The position numbers and the translations under genes are program-made. Below, piece after piece: positions 256 through 9,417 of a stretch of 9,417 nt of DNA. Positions within the stretch are counted from its first letter, which is position 1; the number at the start of each line of letters is the position of its first letter. The DNA is from a virus (Duplodnaviria; Heunggongvirae; Uroviricota; Caudoviricetes), in IMG/VR virus record IMGVR_UViG_2700989509_000013, one strand, 5' to 3'. Below the pieces are notes generated by a model that was given only the letters and a program-made list of their open reading frames with translations, searched no databases and was not told the DNA's origin.

Positions 256-456
256 GAAAATAAAGGGATAACGATGATAGTTTGAGAAAAACAGAAATAA
301 CACTTTTGTGGCAAAGCATGGTGCCGGGTGCCTCCCGGTGAATTCAGTATCAGCACCTGAATCCGCGATTACCCCATATTCCTTCTTGCTGATTGCCCCA
401 CCGCACAGGGGGATTCACCATGCAGAAGTGTTTTTAATAAACAGCAAACAAAAAAA

Positions 457-1225: not shown

Positions 1226-1299
1226 CGCGTTGTACTGGAGTCGAACCAGTGACCGATTGCTTAGAAGGCAATTGCTCTGTCCTGCTGAGCTAACAACGC
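1226..1299 (-). tRNA. tRNA-Arg (anticodon UCU)
   Basis: Clean cloverleaf on the minus strand: acceptor GCGTTGT/ACAACGC, D-arm GCTC/GAGC, anticodon stem ATTGC/GCAAT with loop CTTCTAA, T-arm ACTGG-TTCGACT-CCAGT. CCA not encoded. Confidence 0.9.
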
Positions 1300-1389: not shown

Positions 1390-1465
1390 TGGTGGCCCTT
1401 GCTGGATTTGAACCAGCGACCTGGCGATTATGAGTCGCTCGCTCTCACCACTGAGCTAAAGGGCC
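1390..1465 (-). tRNA. tRNA with anticodon CAU (Ile2/Met type, ileX/ileZ-like), CCA encoded
   Basis: GGCCCTTTAGCTCAGTGGTGAGAGCGAGCGACTCATAATCGCCAGGTCGCTGGTTCAAATCCAGCAAGGGCCACCA: 7-bp acceptor, GCTC/GAGC D-stem, loop CTCATAA, T-arm GCTGG-TTCAAAT-CCAGC. Closely resembles remembered E. coli ileX. Confidence 0.9.
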
Positions 1466-3769: not shown

Positions 3770-4048
3770 TTACCTCCAGATGCGCTGGCAATAACTGACT
3801 GGTGTACGTGGCTGATGATTTGATACAGGTAATGTCACCGAAACAAACCACGTCCTGCCGTCAGGGTTGAGTTGCTTTATTATTGTGTATCCGCGACGAC
3901 CGTATAACTCTTCAAGTTCCCCGAGTTCATGCGTCGTACAGTCCGGATAGTAGAAAGGGGGTTTTTCAGATACGGAAAATCGCCGTCCGTGCCTGCTTGC
4001 AGGGTCGACTGAATTATTGGGATTATGACGTTTGGTATAATGCACCAC
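3770..4048 (-). CDS. Hypothetical protein, 92 aa, GTG start (possibly Rem-like by position only)
   Basis: ORF bounded by stops at 4085-4087 and 3770-3772; no ATG in frame, tandem GTG at 4043-4048 preceded by GAGGG with 5-nt spacer. No recognisable motif. Confidence 0.4.
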   Translation of the reverse strand: MVHYTKRHNPNNSVDPASRHGRRFSVSEKPPFYYPDCTTHELGELEELYGRRGYTIIKQLNPDGRTWFVSVTLPVSNHQPRTPVSYCQRIWR

Positions 4049-4108: not shown

Positions 4109-4276
4109 TTAGTCTTCTTTAATACAGAAGTGGCTGACAGAATCCATGTGAGATTCTTTAGTGATCAGAATGGCGTCGGGTGGTAACGGCATTACAATAA
4201 ACTCTCCATTTGCAAGGGTTATCACCTCATAACTACCCGGTACAGAAAGCGCAGCAATTAATTCCTTATCATTCAT
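4109..4276 (-). CDS. Hypothetical small protein, 55 aa (not in ORF track)
   Basis: ATG 4274-4276 to TAA 4109-4111: MNDKELIAALSVPGSYEVITLANGEFIVMPLPPDAILITKESHMDSVSHFCIKED. Weak RBS. Candidate promoter upstream on minus strand (TTGAGC-18-TAGAAT) and a 12-bp palindrome about 30 nt before the start. Confidence 0.3.
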   Translation of the reverse strand: MNDKELIAALSVPGSYEVITLANGEFIVMPLPPDAILITKESHMDSVSHFCIKED

Positions 4277-4304
4277 AACAAAACCCTATGAACTTTTAAC
4301 ATTT

Positions 4305-4316
4305 CCCCTTAAGGGG
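4305..4316. promoter_or_regulatory. Perfect 12-bp palindrome CCCCTTAAGGGG (operator or 5'-UTR hairpin)
   Basis: Exact palindrome read directly, sitting between the candidate promoter and the start of the 55-aa ORF. Confidence 0.3.
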
Positions 4317-4400
4317 TCCATCCCTCTTCTCCCTGCGCGCTACTTAAGTATTTTTGATTCTATTCCGGCACCTTCAAAAAGCTCAAACGTCTTGAAAATA

Positions 4401-4428
4401 AACAACAAAAAACCCGCCGAAGCGGGTT
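4401..4428 (-). terminator. Rho-independent terminator at the 3' end of the hok transcript
   Basis: Minus-strand hairpin AACCCGC-TTCG-GCGGGTT (4411-4428) followed by UUUUGUUGUU; about 70 nt past the hok stop. Confidence 0.5.
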
Positions 4429-4496
4429 AAGTGCGGGTGCGTTGAGGATGCCTGACACATCAGAGGTGGCGAGGGATTTCTCCCCCGCCGGGTCTC

Positions 4497-4652
4497 TTAC
4501 TCCTCAGGTTCGTAAACTGTGAAGACAGCGACCTCCGTCTGGCCGGTTCGGATTCGTACCTCGCAGAGGTCTTTCCTCGTTACCAGTGCCGTCACTATGA
4601 CGGTTAAACAGATGACGATCAGGGCGATTAACATCGCCTTTTGCTGCTTCAT
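4497..4652 (-). CDS. hok: Hok-family type I toxin (HokD/RelF-like), 51 aa
   Basis: MKQQKAMLIALIVICLTVIVTALVTRKDLCEVRIRTGQTEVAVFTVYEPEE is a near-exact match to remembered HokD. ATG at 4650-4652 with AAGGAG 9 nt upstream; an in-frame upstream ATG at 4709 gives the 70-aa track ORF. Confidence 0.9.
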   Translation of the reverse strand: MKQQKAMLIALIVICLTVIVTALVTRKDLCEVRIRTGQTEVAVFTVYEPEE

Positions 4653-4830
4653 AGCCTGCTTCTCCTTGCCTTTCGGCACGTAAGAGGCTAACCTACATTT
4701 GTGAGACATAGATTGGGCCTCAGATTAATGTTAAGCGTCTTGCAGGACGCCGAATGTTAACTGGGGCTTTTCTCTATCTGCCTTTGGTGTTCATGCCTGA
4801 GACAGATAGCCTCAAGCACCCGCAGCCATT
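4653..4830 (-). promoter_or_regulatory. hok mRNA leader region (expected site of mok-like overlap, fold-back elements and antisense Sok-like RNA; not resolved)
   Basis: Position relative to hok plus inverted repeat CTATCTG/CAGATAG at about 4769-4808. Sok promoter could not be pinned down by eye. Confidence 0.3.
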
Positions 4831-8595: not shown

Positions 8596-8624
8596 ATTGT
8601 TCACTTAAAACGAACATAAGTCAA
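8596..8624 (-). promoter_or_regulatory. PR-like promoter with overlapping operator (drives cro-like operon)
   Basis: Minus strand: -35 TTGACT (plus 8619-8624), 17-bp spacer, -10 AACAAT (plus 8596-8601). Spacer and -10 contain the inverted repeat TTGTTC-N9-GAACA (plus 8597-8617). Confidence 0.5.
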
Positions 8625-8670: not shown

Positions 8671-9060
8671 ATGGACATGAGAAAAAAGCAATACGACACC
8701 CCGCTAGCAGAAAGGTTAGATACGATCTCTCAACAGCATCATTTAAGTGGTTCAGATTTAGCGCGTATCGCTGGTGTAGGTCGTTCATCAGTCAACGCAT
8801 GGAAAAAAAGAGGAACAATCAGTAAAGATTCCGCAGCCAAAATTGCAGAAGCCACAAACGTTTCCCTTTCTTGGCTACTGACAGGGAAAGAAGAGACAAA
8901 TAGAGAGGCGCTTGATGATGACGAGAAGGCCCTGCTTGATGTTTACAGAAACCTGCCACCTGTAGAACGTAGAAATATGCTGGCAGCTTTTCAAATGCGA
9001 CTCCAAAAACTGACCGAATTTTACTCAGAATACGTCGACCCAATAACACGACAAAAATAA
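8671..9060 (+). CDS. DicA/CI-like phage repressor (XRE-family HTH, no peptidase domain)
   Basis: 129-aa product with N-terminal HTH (…LSGSDLARIAGVGRSSVNAWKKRGTIS…) and C-terminal helical region …LLDVYRNLPPVERRNMLAAFQMRL… resembling remembered DicA. Divergent from the cro-like gene. Confidence 0.8.
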   Translation: MDMRKKQYDTPLAERLDTISQQHHLSGSDLARIAGVGRSSVNAWKKRGTISKDSAAKIAEATNVSLSWLLTGKEETNREALDDDEKALLDVYRNLPPVERRNMLAAFQMRLQKLTEFYSEYVDPITRQK

Positions 9061-9126: not shown

Positions 9127-9155
9127 TTGACTTTTGTTCACCTAGAGAGAACAAT
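9127..9155 (+). promoter_or_regulatory. PL-like promoter with overlapping operator
   Basis: -35 TTGACT (9127-9132), 17-bp spacer, -10 AACAAT (9150-9155); perfect inverted repeat TTGTTC-N9-GAACAA at 9134-9154. Same design as the PR-like promoter. Confidence 0.45.
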
Positions 9156-9233
9156 GTATTCCATCAAAGCACAACGGTGCGACAGGTCTTAGTTCCGCTA
9201 CCCCGGCGTTAAGGGGAAACAGAGGATTTCTCA

Positions 9234-9417
9234 GTGGGCGAAGTCAAACATCAGAATGGAAGGCATCAAGGGATCAGCAAAGAAACAGCGATGGCGCTTT
9301 ATATTGACATCAGCGCCATTGCCGGACAGGTAAGAGTTATCAGAGCGGTAACTAAGCGGTATGCGCCTTTACTTCAGAAAGTCTCTGGTGAGTGCACCGA
9401 AGATATTGTCAACGATT
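9234..9417 (+). CDS. Partial ORF of the PL-like operon (5' end only; start uncertain, GTG 9234 or ATG 9290)
   Basis: Open to the window edge: (V)GEVKHQNGRHQGISKETAMALYIDISAIAGQVRVIRAVTKRYAPLLQKVSGECTEDIVND. AGAGGA lies 7 nt upstream of the GTG. No family recognised. Confidence 0.25.
   Translation, partial: MGEVKHQNGRHQGISKETAMALYIDISAIAGQVRVIRAVTKRYAPLLQKVSGECTEDIVND

What the first reader, a model, noticed from the sequence alone, without database searches (positions are those of the whole stretch)
4109..4316. 55-aa ORF behind a perfect 12-bp palindrome, with the motif recurring near the PL-like promoter
CCCCTTAAGGGG (4305-4316) is an exact palindrome between a candidate promoter and the small ORF's start. 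On the transcribed strand it reads CCCCTTAAGGGGAAA, and a closely related CCCCGGCGTTAAGGGGAAA occurs at 9199-9217 in the 5' region of the PL-like transcript. Two copies in two leaders suggest a shared regulatory hairpin or protein-binding site rather than chance.
Basis: seen in the sequence. Interest (0 to 1): 0.4.

Follow-up and report, generated by a model that had tools for sequence, protein, structure and literature searches.

The report
Conserved leader hairpin before antirepressor-slot gene
The 12-bp palindrome is the stem-loop at the end of a strongly conserved promoter-plus-leader cassette; in Qin-like E. coli prophages this cassette drives the small antirepressor gene rem, whose inducing signal is unknown, and here it drives a 55-aa gene in the same slot, while the look-alike near PL belongs to a different conserved leader and the resemblance is probably coincidental.

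Summary
The palindrome CCCCTTAAGGGG is real (4305-4316). The second motif is also real but sits at 9201-9219, not 9199-9217. Neither a 12-bp palindrome nor a shared 11-mer is unusual in 9.4 kb. Conservation is what makes both sites meaningful.

Site 1 closes a cassette found behind the hok terminator in 3039 of 5426 complete E. coli genomes and in active phages. The cassette has a -35 TTGAnn, an invariant -10 TAGAAT(C), a ~31-nt near-invariant leader, and then a C-run/loop/G-run hairpin. The loop varies in sequence and length (3-6 nt).

The cassette precedes either rem, the known antirepressor of the short repressor DicA, or this window's 55-aa ORF. That ORF is under purifying selection. Its type matches the C-terminal domain type of the prophage repressor in 45 of 45 loci, so it is probably an alternative antirepressor.

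Site 2 is the conserved 5' leader of the dicB/ydfA-type PL operon, also present in K-12 Qin. The exact 11-mer shared by the two sites occurs only in this lineage's variant of site 1. A common regulator is therefore not supported.

I found no LexA box, boxA, terminator tail or Rfam family. The best guess is a post-transcriptional gate built from a short upstream ORF and the hairpin. This is unproven.

The parts
4401..4428 (-). Intrinsic terminator of the hok mRNA (AACCCGCTTCGGCGGGTT followed by a T-run). It forms the upstream border of the cassette.
   Evidence: Terminator scan. It is conserved in front of the cassette even where hok itself has been replaced.
4357..4386 (-). Sigma70-type promoter of the antirepressor slot ('P_rem'): -35 TTGAGC at 4381-4386, an 18-bp spacer, and -10 TAGAAT at 4357-4362.
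   Evidence: Promoter scan. TAGAATC is invariant in 64 distinct copies. At least six unrelated upstream sequence types each keep a -35-like hexamer (TTGAnn, or TTGCnn in two types) 16-18 bp before it. The transcription start, near 4349, is inferred and has not been measured.
4318..4348 (-). Near-invariant leader block CTTAAGTAGCGCGCAGGGAGAAGAGGGATGG. It contains the SD-like AGGGAG (4329-4334) and an AUG (4319-4321).
   Evidence: In upstream regions collected by anchoring on the ORF, which is unbiased with respect to the leader, pairwise identity is at least 0.9 per column. The -35 region scores 0.2-0.6, and synonymous divergence in the adjacent ORF is about 0.9.
4305..4316 (-). The reported palindrome: a CCCC/GGGG stem with a TTAA loop, at about +34 to +45 of the predicted transcript.
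   Evidence: The C-run and G-run are kept in every homologue while the loop varies in sequence and in length, 3-6 nt. Local folding energy is -3.9 to -8.1 kcal/mol in 13 variants. No compensatory changes are available.
4286..4321 (-). Short upstream ORF (MDPLRGNVKSS*). It starts 7 nt after the SD-like AGGGAG, runs through the hairpin, and stops at UAG 12 nt before the 55-aa ORF's AUG.
   Evidence: The SD-N7-AUG arrangement is kept in all variants. Peptide length and reading frame are not conserved. Translation is inferred.
4271..4293 (-). Predicted second hairpin (GUUCAUAG...UUAUGAAU). It buries the 55-aa ORF's start codon and leaves its SD-like GGG in the loop.
   Evidence: RNAfold MFE and centroid structures. 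A 5-7 bp stem is possible in the other orf55-type leaders (sequences). This is a prediction only.
4109..4276 (-). 55-aa ORF in the rem slot; a candidate antirepressor.
   Evidence: Median dN/dS is 0.125. There are 14 protein clusters, all from E. coli or Shigella and all annotated 'hypothetical'. It matches phrog_34610. It resembles short Rem57 weakly (hhalign E=8.5e-4) and Rem weakly (E=1.2e-3). It partitions perfectly with the repressor's C-terminal domain type.
8671..9060 (+). Short 129-aa CI/DicA-like repressor with no self-cleavage domain. It is the presumed target of the 55-aa protein.
   Evidence: Pfam finds only HTH domains. It is homologous to DicA-family short repressors and has a distinct C-terminal subtype.
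9127..9155 (+). PL-like promoter (TTGACT-17-AACAAT) with an overlapping operator TGTTC-N9-GAACA at 9135-9153. The same half-sites occur at the PR-like promoter, 8598-8616.
   Evidence: Read directly from the sequence.
9192..9219 (+). Conserved leader block of the PL (dicB/ydfA-type) operon, GTTCCGCTACCCCGGCGTTAAGGGGAAA. It contains the second hairpin, CCCC-GGCGTTAA-GGGG, at 9201-9216.
   Evidence: It is present upstream of two different first genes and downstream of unrelated promoters or toxin-antitoxin modules. It is in K-12 Qin upstream of ydfA. It appears in 24 distinct contexts anchored on YdfA.

Best explanation
**What the window is.** It is the early region of a Qin/mEp460-like lambdoid prophage of E. 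coli.

**What the palindrome is.** It is the stem-loop that ends a conserved promoter-leader cassette placed directly after the hok terminator. The cassette has four parts:
- a sigma70 promoter, with a -35 TTGAnn and an invariant -10 TAGAAT;
- a ~31-nt near-invariant purine-rich leader, which carries a strong SD-like AGGGAG followed 7 nt later by AUG;
- a 4-bp C/G hairpin that begins 5 nt after that AUG;
- the first gene of the nin-side transcript.

**What the first gene is.** In most relatives it is rem, the experimentally shown antirepressor of the short repressor DicA. Here it is a 55-aa gene in the same slot. I infer that it is the antirepressor matched to this prophage's 129-aa repressor class.

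**Most likely mechanism.** Confidence in this specific step is about 0.35.
- The leader acts on the RNA.
- Ribosomes load at the conserved SD-AUG and must melt the GC hairpin.
- They then translate a short upstream ORF whose last codons lie over, or just before, the weak and structure-buried start of the antirepressor gene.
- Antirepressor synthesis is thereby gated after transcription rather than by LexA.

**Shown versus inferred.**
- Shown: the sequence features, their conservation, the slot equivalence with rem, and the link between slot gene and repressor type.
- Inferred: the transcription start, that the hairpin forms in RNA, uORF translation, coupling to the downstream start, and antirepressor activity of the 55-aa protein.

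**The second motif.** It is an independent conserved hairpin in the 5' leader of the PL (dicB/ydfA-type) operon. Its sequence identity with site 1 is coincidental.
For: **Context**
- BLAST and annotation place the window in Qin-like prophages, with hokD, DUF968/ydfU, rusA, Q, YdaS/YdaT and a short HTH repressor.

**Cassette conservation**
- Alignment with K-12 Qin, O157 and NCCP15648 shows the shared block and a hairpin with a variable loop.
- There are 125 copies, 64 of them distinct, in viral contigs.
- TAGAATC is invariant, and at least six unrelated upstream types each keep a -35-like hexamer at 16-18 bp.
- All 22 loci found by anchoring on the 55-aa ORF carry the cassette.
- Leader identity is at least 0.9 per column, while dS in the adjacent ORF is about 0.9.
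- 3039 of 5426 E. coli genomes match window 4304-4410.
- The cassette is present in the active phages mEp460_ev081 and Rac-SA53.

**Link to antirepression**
- Rem is the antirepressor of DicA and its inducer is unknown (PMC10448788; PMC11430063).
- Gifsy antirepressor genes likewise sit behind a terminator, downstream of the replication genes (PMC3121763).
- Slot gene against repressor C-terminal type: orf55 11/11, long Rem 32/32 and Rem57 2/2, with no exceptions.
- orf55 has dN/dS of 0.125 and a weak profile similarity to Rem57 and Rem.
- Two phages with long cI-type repressors lack the cassette.

**Hairpin and upstream ORF**
- Local folding energy is -3.9 to -8.1 kcal/mol in all variants tested.
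- A varying loop length argues against a fixed-spacing dimer operator.
- The uORF stop lies at -2 or -5 of the main AUG in most rem86 and rem57 variants and in Rac-SA53.
- In the window the stop is at -12, over the 5' arm of a predicted hairpin that buries the AUG.
- An antirepressor translated through an upstream ORF has a precedent in IsrK-orf45-anrP (PMC4825925).
Against: - **No covariation.** The stem is always C:G, and only one-sided C-to-U changes occur.
- **No unusual structure.** The whole leader folds no better than shuffled sequence, with z=+1.1 for site 1 and z=0.0 for site 2.
- **The uORF end is not conserved.** It stops after only 3 codons (MVP*), 34 nt before rem, in the commonest K-12/mEp460 type. 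In other types it stops at -22, +8 or +20, or is fused in frame. Simple stop-start coupling therefore cannot be universal.
- **No expression data.** No measured transcription start or ribosome-profiling data were examined.
- **DNA-level reading remains open.** The near-invariance of the 31-nt block fits a sequence-specific protein site on DNA or RNA equally well.
- **Weak homology.** orf55-Rem similarity has only about 20% hhalign probability, BLASTP finds nothing, and the AF2 model (pLDDT 71) has no structural match.
- **Possible shared descent.** The slot-gene/repressor association could partly reflect common ancestry of linked modules.
- **An exception.** Phage Evi has a short 123-aa repressor but no cassette.
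Confidence: 0.55

Rival explanations
1. One reading: the two motif copies are one shared regulatory element. Under this view the same protein or RNA recognises (CCCC)-TTAAGGGGAAA in both the small-ORF leader and the PL leader, and so coordinates the two transcripts.
For: Both copies lie about 35-45 nt downstream of promoters, in 5' leaders, just upstream of the first gene's ribosome-binding site. The composite motif was absent from 200 shuffles. CCCC-N3-8-GGGG is mildly enriched, 3 against 0.54 expected. Both transcripts belong to the induction circuit: antirepressor slot and PL operon.
Against: The shared 11-mer exists only in this lineage's variant of site 1. Other site-1 copies have different loops and different bases after the G-run. 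The flanking conserved blocks of the two leaders are unrelated. 99 of 113 motif hits in viral contigs are of the site-2 type only. About 29 shared 11-mers are expected by chance in a window of this size.
Confidence: 0.08
2. The conserved block from about +1 to +45, including the palindrome, acts on DNA as an operator. A host-encoded or widely conserved phage repressor would use it to keep the antirepressor promoter silent in lysogens, doing the job LexA does in Gifsy phages.
For: An antirepressor promoter must be silent in a lysogen. Gifsy antirepressor promoters carry a repressor site (LexA) at the equivalent position (PMC3121763). The block is conserved in sequence without structural covariation. 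It directly abuts the -10 and start region. It is the same in phages of different immunity, so any regulator must be common to them.
Against: There is no LexA box: CTGT-N8-ACAG with up to one mismatch is absent from the region. The 31-nt block has no dyad symmetry. The only dyad, the palindrome, changes its spacing by 3 nt among homologues, which a dimeric binder would not tolerate. No candidate regulator was identified.
Confidence: 0.2
3. The purine-rich leader is a binding platform for a host RNA-binding protein such as CsrA, with GGA motifs at AGGGAG and AGGGAUG, or Hfq. That protein would repress or activate translation, and the hairpin would present or space the motifs.
For: GGAUGG is invariant in all copies, including unbiased ones. 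AGGGAUG matches the ARGGAUG core of the CsrA SELEX consensus (recalled from memory). A further GGA lies in the rem SD, GGAAGGAUU. Hfq and Fis have been implicated in silencing Qin genes (discussion of PMC10448788).
Against: No binding data exist. The held supplementary files of the E. coli CsrA CLIP-seq study contain no rem entry, though those files are truncated. The two GGA motifs are only 9 nt apart. The window's own orf55 SD lacks GGA. The GGA motifs are not placed in hairpin loops by any prediction.
Confidence: 0.12
4. There is no regulatory role. The palindrome and block would be a conserved 'linker' at a mosaic junction, kept because it supplies homology for recombination that swaps the downstream gene, or they would simply be a recently spread sequence.
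For: Homology with K-12 and 3039 genomes stops exactly at the palindrome, at 4304. Different genes (rem83-95, rem57, orf55) follow it and different -35 regions precede it. Site 2 likewise sits at a junction between variable promoters and variable first genes.
Against: A block of about 45 nt is too short to account for repeated crossovers on both sides. Its features are those of an expression signal: an invariant -10, a -35 at the correct spacing in unrelated contexts, and SD-N7-AUG. It is retained next to a strongly diverged rem in Rac-SA53. It is far more conserved than synonymous sites nearby.
Confidence: 0.05
5. The hairpins are boxB-like parts of nut-type antitermination sites that load an N-like factor on the PL and nin-side transcripts.
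For: Site 2 lies where nutL lies in lambda, between PL and the first gene. Some site-1 variants have GNRNA-like pentaloops (GAACA, GAGCA). L007 reads CCCUGAGAAGGG, close to lambda boxB CCCUGAAGAAGGG (the lambda sequence is recalled from memory).
Against: No boxA lies within either leader. The window's loops are TTAA and GGCGTTAA, not GNRA-like. Loop sequence is not conserved within the family. The first PL ORF has no arginine-rich N-like motif, and YdfA-type proteins are unrelated to N.
Confidence: 0.02

Closest known systems
rem-DicA antirepressor/repressor pair of the Qin prophage, E. coli K-12 (Ragunathan et al. 2023, PMC10448788)
   Same: - The genomic slot is the same: hok terminator, then the cassette, then a small gene, then the 92-aa ORF, ydfU, rusA and Q.
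- The promoter-leader cassette is the same, including the hairpin position.
- The repressor is a short, non-cleavable member of the same family.
- The PL-side leader (site 2) is the same as the one upstream of ydfA in K-12.
   Different: - The gene behind the cassette is a 55-aa protein with only marginal similarity to Rem.
- The repressor has a different C-terminal subtype.
- The hairpin loop is TTAA rather than TTAAA, so the upstream ORF has 11 codons rather than 3.
- Antirepressor activity of the 55-aa protein is untested.
- The cassette itself is not described in that paper, which states that rem's inducing signal is unknown.
Gifsy-1/-3 antirepressors GfoA/GfhA under LexA control (Lemire et al. 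2011, PMC3121763)
   Same: - A small antirepressor gene lies outside the immunity region, about 1 kb downstream of the replication genes.
- It is preceded by a terminator-like palindrome and has its own promoter.
- It acts on short non-cleavable repressors.
- These antirepressors act across heteroimmune repressors. That fits the link seen here between slot gene and the repressor's C-terminal domain rather than its DNA-binding domain.
   Different: - No LexA box is present here.
- There is no dinI homologue between promoter and antirepressor.
- Control appears to reside in a conserved transcribed leader instead.
IsrK-orf45-anrP locus of Gifsy-1 (Hershko-Shalev et al. 2016, PMC4825925)
   Same: An antirepressor-like gene whose translation depends on an upstream small ORF and on alternative RNA structures in the leader. 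This is a functional analogy for the proposed gate.
   Different: - The location is different: downstream of antQ.
- There is no sequence similarity.
- That system needs a trans-acting short RNA isoform, and nothing comparable was identified here.
- The weak Rfam isrK hit at 4407-4488 is the 3' end of the hok mRNA.
5' leader of the dicBF (ydfABC-dicF-dicB) operon of Qin
   Same: Site 2 is this leader. GTTCCGCTACCCC(A/G)GCGTTAAGGGGAAA lies immediately before the first gene's SD, in K-12 and in 24 other contexts.
   Different: In the window the first gene after the leader is not ydfA but another ORF, starting at GTG 9234, or an opposite-strand ECs_2282-family gene as annotated in RefSeq. No function has been assigned to this leader in the papers read.
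Lambda nut sites (boxA plus boxB)
   Same: A short GC-stemmed hairpin in the early leaders. Site 2 is at the nutL-equivalent position.
   Different: There is no boxA, no conserved GNRA-like loop and no N-like protein. It is not a member of this family.

Membership tests
Antirepressor module of short-repressor lambdoid prophages (Rem/DicA, GfoA/GfoR type) | The prophage repressor is short (about 125-160 aa), with an HTH domain but no S24/LexA-like self-cleavage domain. | tested here: met
   The repressor is 129 aa and Pfam finds only HTH families. It is homologous to DicA-family short repressors.
Antirepressor module of short-repressor lambdoid prophages (Rem/DicA, GfoA/GfoR type) | A small gene lies outside the immunity region, downstream of the replication genes, behind a terminator and with its own promoter. 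| tested here: met
   The order is hok terminator 4401-4428, promoter 4357-4386, then the ORF at 4109-4276. This is the same slot and the same cassette as rem in K-12.
Antirepressor module of short-repressor lambdoid prophages (Rem/DicA, GfoA/GfoR type) | The small protein is homologous to Rem or GfoA. | tested here: inconclusive
   BLASTP finds no alignment. hhalign gives E=8.5e-4 over 43 columns against Rem57 and E=1.2e-3 over 26 columns against Rem, with probability about 20%. The PHROG families differ: 34610 against 340. The shared N-terminal pattern is MNxxEL..S..G.Y.V....NG.
Antirepressor module of short-repressor lambdoid prophages (Rem/DicA, GfoA/GfoR type) | Antirepressor type is matched to repressor type (specificity). 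| tested here: met
   All 45 of 45 loci partition perfectly by the repressor's C-terminal domain: orf55 11, long Rem 32, Rem57 2. This is correlative only.
Antirepressor module of short-repressor lambdoid prophages (Rem/DicA, GfoA/GfoR type) | The protein binds the repressor and derepresses PL and PR. | not testable with these tools
   This needs a reporter or pull-down experiment. It has been shown only for Rem and DicA (PMC10448788).
LexA-controlled antirepressor promoters (Gifsy, 186 Tum, N15 AntC) | A LexA box (CTGT-N8-ACAG) overlaps the promoter. | tested here: not met
   No match with up to one mismatch occurs anywhere near 4270-4430. None of the upstream sequence types shows a CTG-N10-CAG box.
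Lambda-type nut site | A boxA (YGCTCTTWA) lies 5' of the hairpin within the same leader. | tested here: not met
   The nearest one-mismatch match, at 4427-4435, lies upstream of the promoter. There is none near 9160-9220.
Lambda-type nut site | A boxB hairpin has a conserved GNRA-like pentaloop, and an N-like arginine-rich protein is encoded next to PL. | tested here: not met
   The loops are TTAA and GGCGTTAA. Loops are not conserved among homologues. The first PL ORF has no arginine-rich motif.
Intrinsic (Rho-independent) terminator | A GC-rich stem is followed by a U-tract. | tested here: not met
   The scan finds only the hok terminator. The palindrome is followed by AAAUGUUAAAAG on the - strand and by UCCAUCCCUC on the + strand.
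Palindromic operator for a dimeric DNA-binding protein | Half-site spacing is fixed across homologues. | tested here: not met
   The distance between the C-run and the G-run varies from 3 to 6 nt.
Conserved RNA hairpin (structure under selection) | Compensatory base-pair changes maintain the stem. | tested here: inconclusive
   The arms never vary except for one-sided C-to-U changes, so covariation cannot be assessed. Indirect support comes from fixed arms combined with a free loop.
uORF-coupled translation of an antirepressor (IsrK-orf45-anrP-like) | There is a conserved SD plus AUG for an upstream ORF whose stop lies at or near the main start, and the main start is structurally masked. | tested here: inconclusive
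   SD-N7-AUG is kept in all copies. The stop lies at -2 or -5 in most rem86 and rem57 types and in Rac-SA53, at -12 in the window, and at -34 in the K-12/mEp460 type. A hairpin that buries the start is predicted for the window. No translation data were examined.
Any Rfam family | A covariance-model match at either site. | tested here: not met
   Nothing with E of 1 or less overlaps 4286-4360 or 9160-9220. Only chance-level CRISPR-repeat hits appear at E above 3.

The most novel reading that the evidence does not exclude
The cassette (invariant -10, a 31-nt purine-rich leader with SD-AUG, and a GC hairpin) would be a previously undescribed, SOS-independent post-transcriptional sensor. It would decide when Qin/mEp460/Rac-type prophages make their antirepressor, coupling induction to a host translational or RNA-binding-protein signal. 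The 55-aa protein would be a new antirepressor class that recognises a distinct C-terminal domain subtype of short CI-like repressors.
Probability: 0.25. Interest if true: 0.65.

Novelty: new member of a known kind. Interest (0 to 1): 0.4.

Why it matters
Short, non-cleavable repressors of the DicA/GfoR type are present in most E. coli genomes. Induction of their prophages depends on small antirepressors.

For Qin's Rem, two recent papers state that the inducing signal is unknown (PMC10448788, PMC11430063).

The cassette identified here is the obvious place to look for that signal:
- It is the only strongly constrained non-coding sequence in front of rem.
- It is shared by cryptic and active phages.
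- It lacks a LexA box.

It offers a compact, mutable target: the -10, the SD-AUG and the hairpin arms.

The perfect match between slot-gene type and repressor C-terminal type also nominates the 55-aa protein, and a 57-aa Rem variant, as further antirepressor specificities. These are directly testable with existing dicBp-lacZ-type assays.

Tried and rejected
- **Within-window statistics.** The palindrome count and shared 11-mers are not significant on their own.
- **Rfam.** Scans at the gathering and E-value thresholds found nothing at either site. The isrK and rsmX hits at 4407-4512 are the 3' end and terminator of the hok mRNA.
- **Intrinsic terminator.** Rejected, because there is no U-tract.
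- **LexA box.** Absent.
- **boxA/nut.** Absent.
- **YdaT or CII-type and repressor operator sites.** Operator half-sites TGTTC/GAACA occur at PL and PR only.
- **Whole-leader folding.** z-scores are +1.1 and 0.0, so neither leader is unusually structured.
- **RNAalifold on 17 variants.** There was no covariation. The ungapped alignment favoured an alternative GGG/CCC pairing, which is uninformative.
- **Long-range helix AAGUAGCGC/GUGCUAUUU in rem-type leaders.** It forms 6-9 of 9 pairs with one possible compensatory change. This is too weak to claim, and the helix is absent from the window's type.
- **CsrA.** The CLIP-seq supplement lists no rem entry, but the held files are truncated.
- **BLASTP of orf55 against Rem.** Nothing found.
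- **Pfam.** Nothing for orf55, Rem or the 92-aa ORF.
- **Structure.** The AF2 model of orf55 is only moderately confident (pLDDT 71), and Foldseek against BFVD gave no hit with E below 0.26. The afdb50 library was unavailable.
- **TSS literature search.** It did not yield a usable data set for the rem upstream region.
- **'Cassette absent means long cI'.** This holds for 813R8 and 689R5 but not for Evi, which has a 123-aa repressor and no cassette.
Full report
**1. Observation**

The palindrome CCCCTTAAGGGG is at 4305-4316. On the - strand it reads CCCCTTAAGGGGAAA, at 4302-4316. The 55-aa ORF (MNDKELIAALSVPGSYEVITLANGEFIVMPLPPDAILITKESHMDSVSHFCIKED) is at 4109-4276 on the - strand.

The second motif, CCCCGGCGTTAAGGGGAAA, is at 9201-9219.

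- One 12-bp perfect palindrome was observed against 2.35 expected.
- The window holds 99 pairs of shared 11-mers, against about 29 expected in random sequence.
- The composite pattern is absent from 200 shuffles, but it was defined after the fact.
- CCCC-N3-8-GGGG occurs three times against 0.54 expected. The third copy is at 396-411, and 8 of 200 shuffles reach three.

**2. Context**

The window is the early region of a Qin/mEp460-like lambdoid prophage of E. coli.

On the - strand it carries:
- a Cro-like YdaS protein and a YdaT protein;
- replication genes;
- a complete hok/sok locus (Rfam sok at 4647-4821, E=9e-27);
- the 55-aa ORF and a 92-aa ORF;
- DUF968/ydfU, rusA and Q.

On the + strand it carries:
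- a 129-aa HTH repressor (8671-9060) with no cleavage domain;
- a PL-like promoter, TTGACT-17-AACAAT at 9127-9155, overlapped by TGTTC-N9-GAACA. The same half-sites overlap the PR-like promoter.

**3. Site 1 is the end of a conserved promoter-leader cassette**

Alignment with K-12 Qin, an O157 prophage and NCCP15648 shows a shared layout after the hok terminator (4401-4428):
- a -35/-10 promoter;
- the block CTTAAGTAGCGCGCAGGGA[G/T]AAGAGGGATGG;
- a C-run, a loop and a G-run;
- then unrelated genes.

*Pattern-based sample.* A pattern scan of viral contigs gave at least 120 loci, with 125 copies of which 64 are distinct. The searched block is invariant there by construction. Outside the search pattern, TAGAATC is invariant. 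Unrelated upstream sequence types each keep a -35-like hexamer 16-18 bp before it.

*Unbiased sample.* Anchoring on the 55-aa protein gave 22 loci, and all carry the cassette. They add variants GCGCGCAGGGAGAAGA[G/T/A]GGATGG and a further upstream type.

*Degree of constraint.* Across 13 distinct upstream/CDS combinations, per-column pairwise identity is at least 0.9 in the leader and 0.2-0.6 in the -35 region. Synonymous divergence in the ORF is about 0.9. The leader is therefore under much stronger constraint than neutral sites.

*Distribution.*
- 3039 of 5426 complete E. coli genomes match window 4304-4410, and the homology stops exactly at the palindrome.
- The active phages mEp460_ev081, HannyBb and PhiR42_1, the PPompW prophages, and Rac-SA53 carry the cassette.
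- Rac-SA53 has a strongly diverged rem, yet it keeps TAGAATC...GCGCGCAGGGAGAAGATGGATGG-C-CCCC-ATAAA-GGGG.

**4. The hairpin**

The C-run and G-run are always present. The loop is TTAA in the window and most orf55 types. Elsewhere it is ATAA, TTAAA (K-12, mEp460), TGAA, GAACA, AAACA, GAGCA, GAA, TGAGAA, TTCA or ATAAA.

Local folding energies are -3.9 to -8.1 kcal/mol in 13 variants.

Fixed arms with a loop free in sequence and in length (3-6 nt) fit a nucleic-acid hairpin. They do not fit a fixed-spacing dimer operator.

Because the arms never change, beyond a one-sided C-to-U, covariation cannot be shown. The whole leader is not unusually structured, with z=+1.1. There is no U-tract, so the hairpin is not a terminator.

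**5. What the cassette drives**

In most relatives the gene behind the cassette is rem. Ragunathan et al. showed that Rem derepresses dicBp 165-fold by antagonising the short repressor DicA. They state that the signal inducing rem is unknown (PMC10448788), as does PMC11430063.

In Gifsy prophages the antirepressor genes lie at the equivalent place, downstream of the replication genes and behind a terminator-like palindrome, but under a LexA box (PMC3121763). No LexA box exists here.

The slot holds three gene types:
- long Rem, 83-95 aa;
- a 57-aa Rem variant;
- the 55-aa ORF.

The 55-aa ORF is a real gene. Median dN/dS is 0.125 over 38 pairs. It forms 14 protein clusters, all from E. coli or Shigella and all 'hypothetical'.

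Its similarity to Rem is marginal:
- BLASTP finds nothing.
- hhalign gives E=8.5e-4 over 43 columns against Rem57 and E=1.2e-3 over 26 columns against Rem, at about 20% probability.
- The shared N-terminal pattern is MNxxEL..S..G.Y.V....NG.

In the 45 loci where the slot gene and the repressor lie on one contig, the slot-gene type is a perfect function of the repressor's C-terminal domain type:

| Slot gene | Repressor C-terminal type | Loci |
|---|---|---|
| orf55 | window/KFu019 type (..YRxxPPVExxNMLxAFxMRL..) | 11/11 |
| long Rem | DicA/PEC178/L107 type (LFxALPxSEQ..) | 32/32 |
| Rem57 | L014/L073 type | 2/2 |

Several different N-terminal HTH domains occur within each class. This matches the finding that Gifsy antirepressors act across heteroimmune repressors.

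Two phages with long cI-type repressors, 813R8 and 689R5, have neither cassette nor slot gene. Evi, with a 123-aa repressor, also lacks them, which is a caveat. Tritos has an ImmA/IrrE-type module there instead.

I therefore infer that the 55-aa protein is the antirepressor for this prophage's repressor class. That is an inference, not a demonstration.

**6. Mechanism**

The leader carries an SD-like AGGGAG (4329-4334), 7 nt, then AUG (4319-4321). The hairpin begins 5 nt after that AUG.

In the window this opens an 11-codon ORF, MDPLRGNVKSS*. Its stop at 4286-4288 is 12 nt before the main AUG. It lies on the 5' arm of a predicted hairpin (4271-4293) that buries the main start codon.

Across variants the uORF stop position differs:
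- at -2 or -5 of the main AUG in most rem86 and rem57 leaders and in Rac-SA53 (UGAUG, UAAUG);
- at -22 or +8 in other orf55 leaders, and at +20 in one rem57-type leader (L010);
- at -34, as a 3-codon MVP*/MAP* mini-ORF, in the K-12/mEp460 type;
- fused in frame in one type.

The peptide is not conserved, so any role would lie in the act of translation.

An antirepressor translated through an upstream ORF and alternative leader structures has a precedent in IsrK-orf45-anrP (PMC4825925).

I commit to a post-transcriptional gate of uORF plus hairpin as the most likely mechanism, at about 0.35. The alternatives are:
- a DNA operator for an unidentified common repressor, about 0.2;
- an RNA-binding-protein platform such as CsrA acting on the invariant GGAUGG, about 0.12. 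This is untested, and the held CLIP supplement lists no rem entry.

**7. Site 2**

The block GTTCCGC[T/C][A/C]CCC(C)[G/A/T]GCGTTAAGGGGAAA is conserved downstream of unrelated promoters or toxin-antitoxin modules. It lies upstream of two different first genes.

It is the leader of ydfA in the K-12 dicBF operon. It appears in 24 distinct contexts anchored on YdfA.

A 5'-proximal hairpin upstream of it changes sequence between immunity types while keeping its pairing: CACC-GCAC-GGTG, GCAC-AACG-GTGC, or AACGA..TCGTT.

Site 2 is real and conserved, but its flanks are unrelated to those of site 1.

**8. Are the two sites one element?**

The 11-mer TTAAGGGGAAA at site 1 is confined to this window's lineage. 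Other orf55 leaders read GGGGAGG, GGGGATG or GGGGAAG. rem leaders have other loops altogether.

The identity is therefore most simply a coincidence between two independently conserved GC-clamped leader hairpins. A shared factor is not excluded, at about 0.08, but nothing supports it beyond position.

**9. Comparison and novelty**

The module is a member of the known Rem/DicA-type (Gifsy-like) antirepressor arrangement. It is not LexA-controlled, not a nut site, not a terminator and not an Rfam family.

Two things appear undescribed in the papers read:
- the conserved promoter-leader cassette itself;
- the 55-aa and 57-aa slot alleles that co-vary with the repressor's C-terminal subtype.

**10. 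Verdict**

The idea of a regulatory hairpin between promoter and ORF is reasonable and strengthened by conservation. The idea of one shared motif is not supported.

Interest is moderate, at 0.4. The cassette gives a concrete handle on the open question of what induces rem-type antirepressors, but the mechanism is inferred.

Noticed in passing
window 4497-4821 (- strand): There is a complete hok/mok/sok type I toxin-antitoxin locus: hok at 4497-4652, the mok frame running to 4709, and Rfam sok at 4647-4821 (116.9 bits). In K-12 Qin, by contrast, relBE replaces the sok side. The 3' end of the hok mRNA (4407-4488) gives a sub-threshold Rfam isrK hit of 30.5 bits.
   Followed up: partly
window 396-411 (within 280-452, - strand): A third CCCC-N8-GGGG hairpin (CCCCTGTGCGGTGGGG on the - strand) lies near the 5' part of a strong STnc100 sRNA match (100.8 bits). 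It sits in the late-region leader between the tRNA genes and the lysis genes. Three GC-clamped hairpins therefore sit in three leaders of one prophage.
   Followed up: no
window 4341-4350: A 10-bp palindrome, TACTTAAGTA, spans the predicted transcription start of the cassette. It contains a second CTTAAG, 35 bp from the one inside the 12-bp palindrome. CTTAAG is kept in most copies but reads CTTAGT, CTTGAT or TTTGAG in some.
   Followed up: partly
L004 1340-1690 and L154 (O157:H7-type prophages): The leader carries a tandem 18-nt duplication (AAGAGGGATGGCCCCCAT, twice). It doubles the SD-like/AUG/C-run unit in front of the hairpin.
   Followed up: no
window 3770-4048 (- strand): A 92-aa ORF (phrog_1212, function unknown) lies directly downstream of the slot gene. 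Some phage records call it 'toxin to Rem'. It is left unannotated in the RefSeq record of strain EC12. It is present whether or not the cassette and slot gene are there.
   Followed up: partly
L355 2638-4394 (phage Tritos); L005 1319-2422: Around the hok terminator, other prophages carry a different induction-type module. In Tritos, an ImmA/IrrE metallopeptidase with an XRE HTH domain, plus a 204-aa ORF with its own TTGACA-like promoters, sits directly behind the terminator. In NCCP15648 (L005) a 367-aa HTH-domain gene replaces hok upstream of the terminator, and the cassette and rem still follow. The region looks like a hotspot for anti-repression cargo.
   Followed up: no
window 9169-9180 and homologues (L160-L239): The PL-operon leader starts with a small hairpin. 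Its sequence differs between immunity types but its pairing is kept (GCAC-AACG-GTGC here; CACC-GCAC-GGTG in K-12; AACGA...TCGTT in L174). This looks like a covarying 5' stem-loop.
   Followed up: partly
window 9234-9417 (+) versus the opposite strand: An ORF starting at GTG 9234 runs off the window behind the site-2 leader. RefSeq instead annotates an opposite-strand 'ECs_2282 family putative zinc-binding protein' in homologous DNA, while a phage record annotates the + strand ORF. Which of the two is real remains unresolved.
   Followed up: no
window 1226-1299 and 1393-1465 (- strand): Two tRNA genes lie downstream of the Q antiterminator gene, as in Stx-phage-like late regions. Weak isrJ/isrK-like hits at 1572-1645 probably mark the short terminated late-promoter transcript.
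   Followed up: no
rem83-type leaders (L003, L052, L115, L352): Three different loop sequences (TTAAA with a 3-C run, and TGAA with a 4-C or 5-C run) all place a stop codon as codon 4 of the mini-ORF (MVP* or MAP*). This hints that a Met-X-Pro-stop mini-ORF may itself be selected in that class.
   Followed up: no
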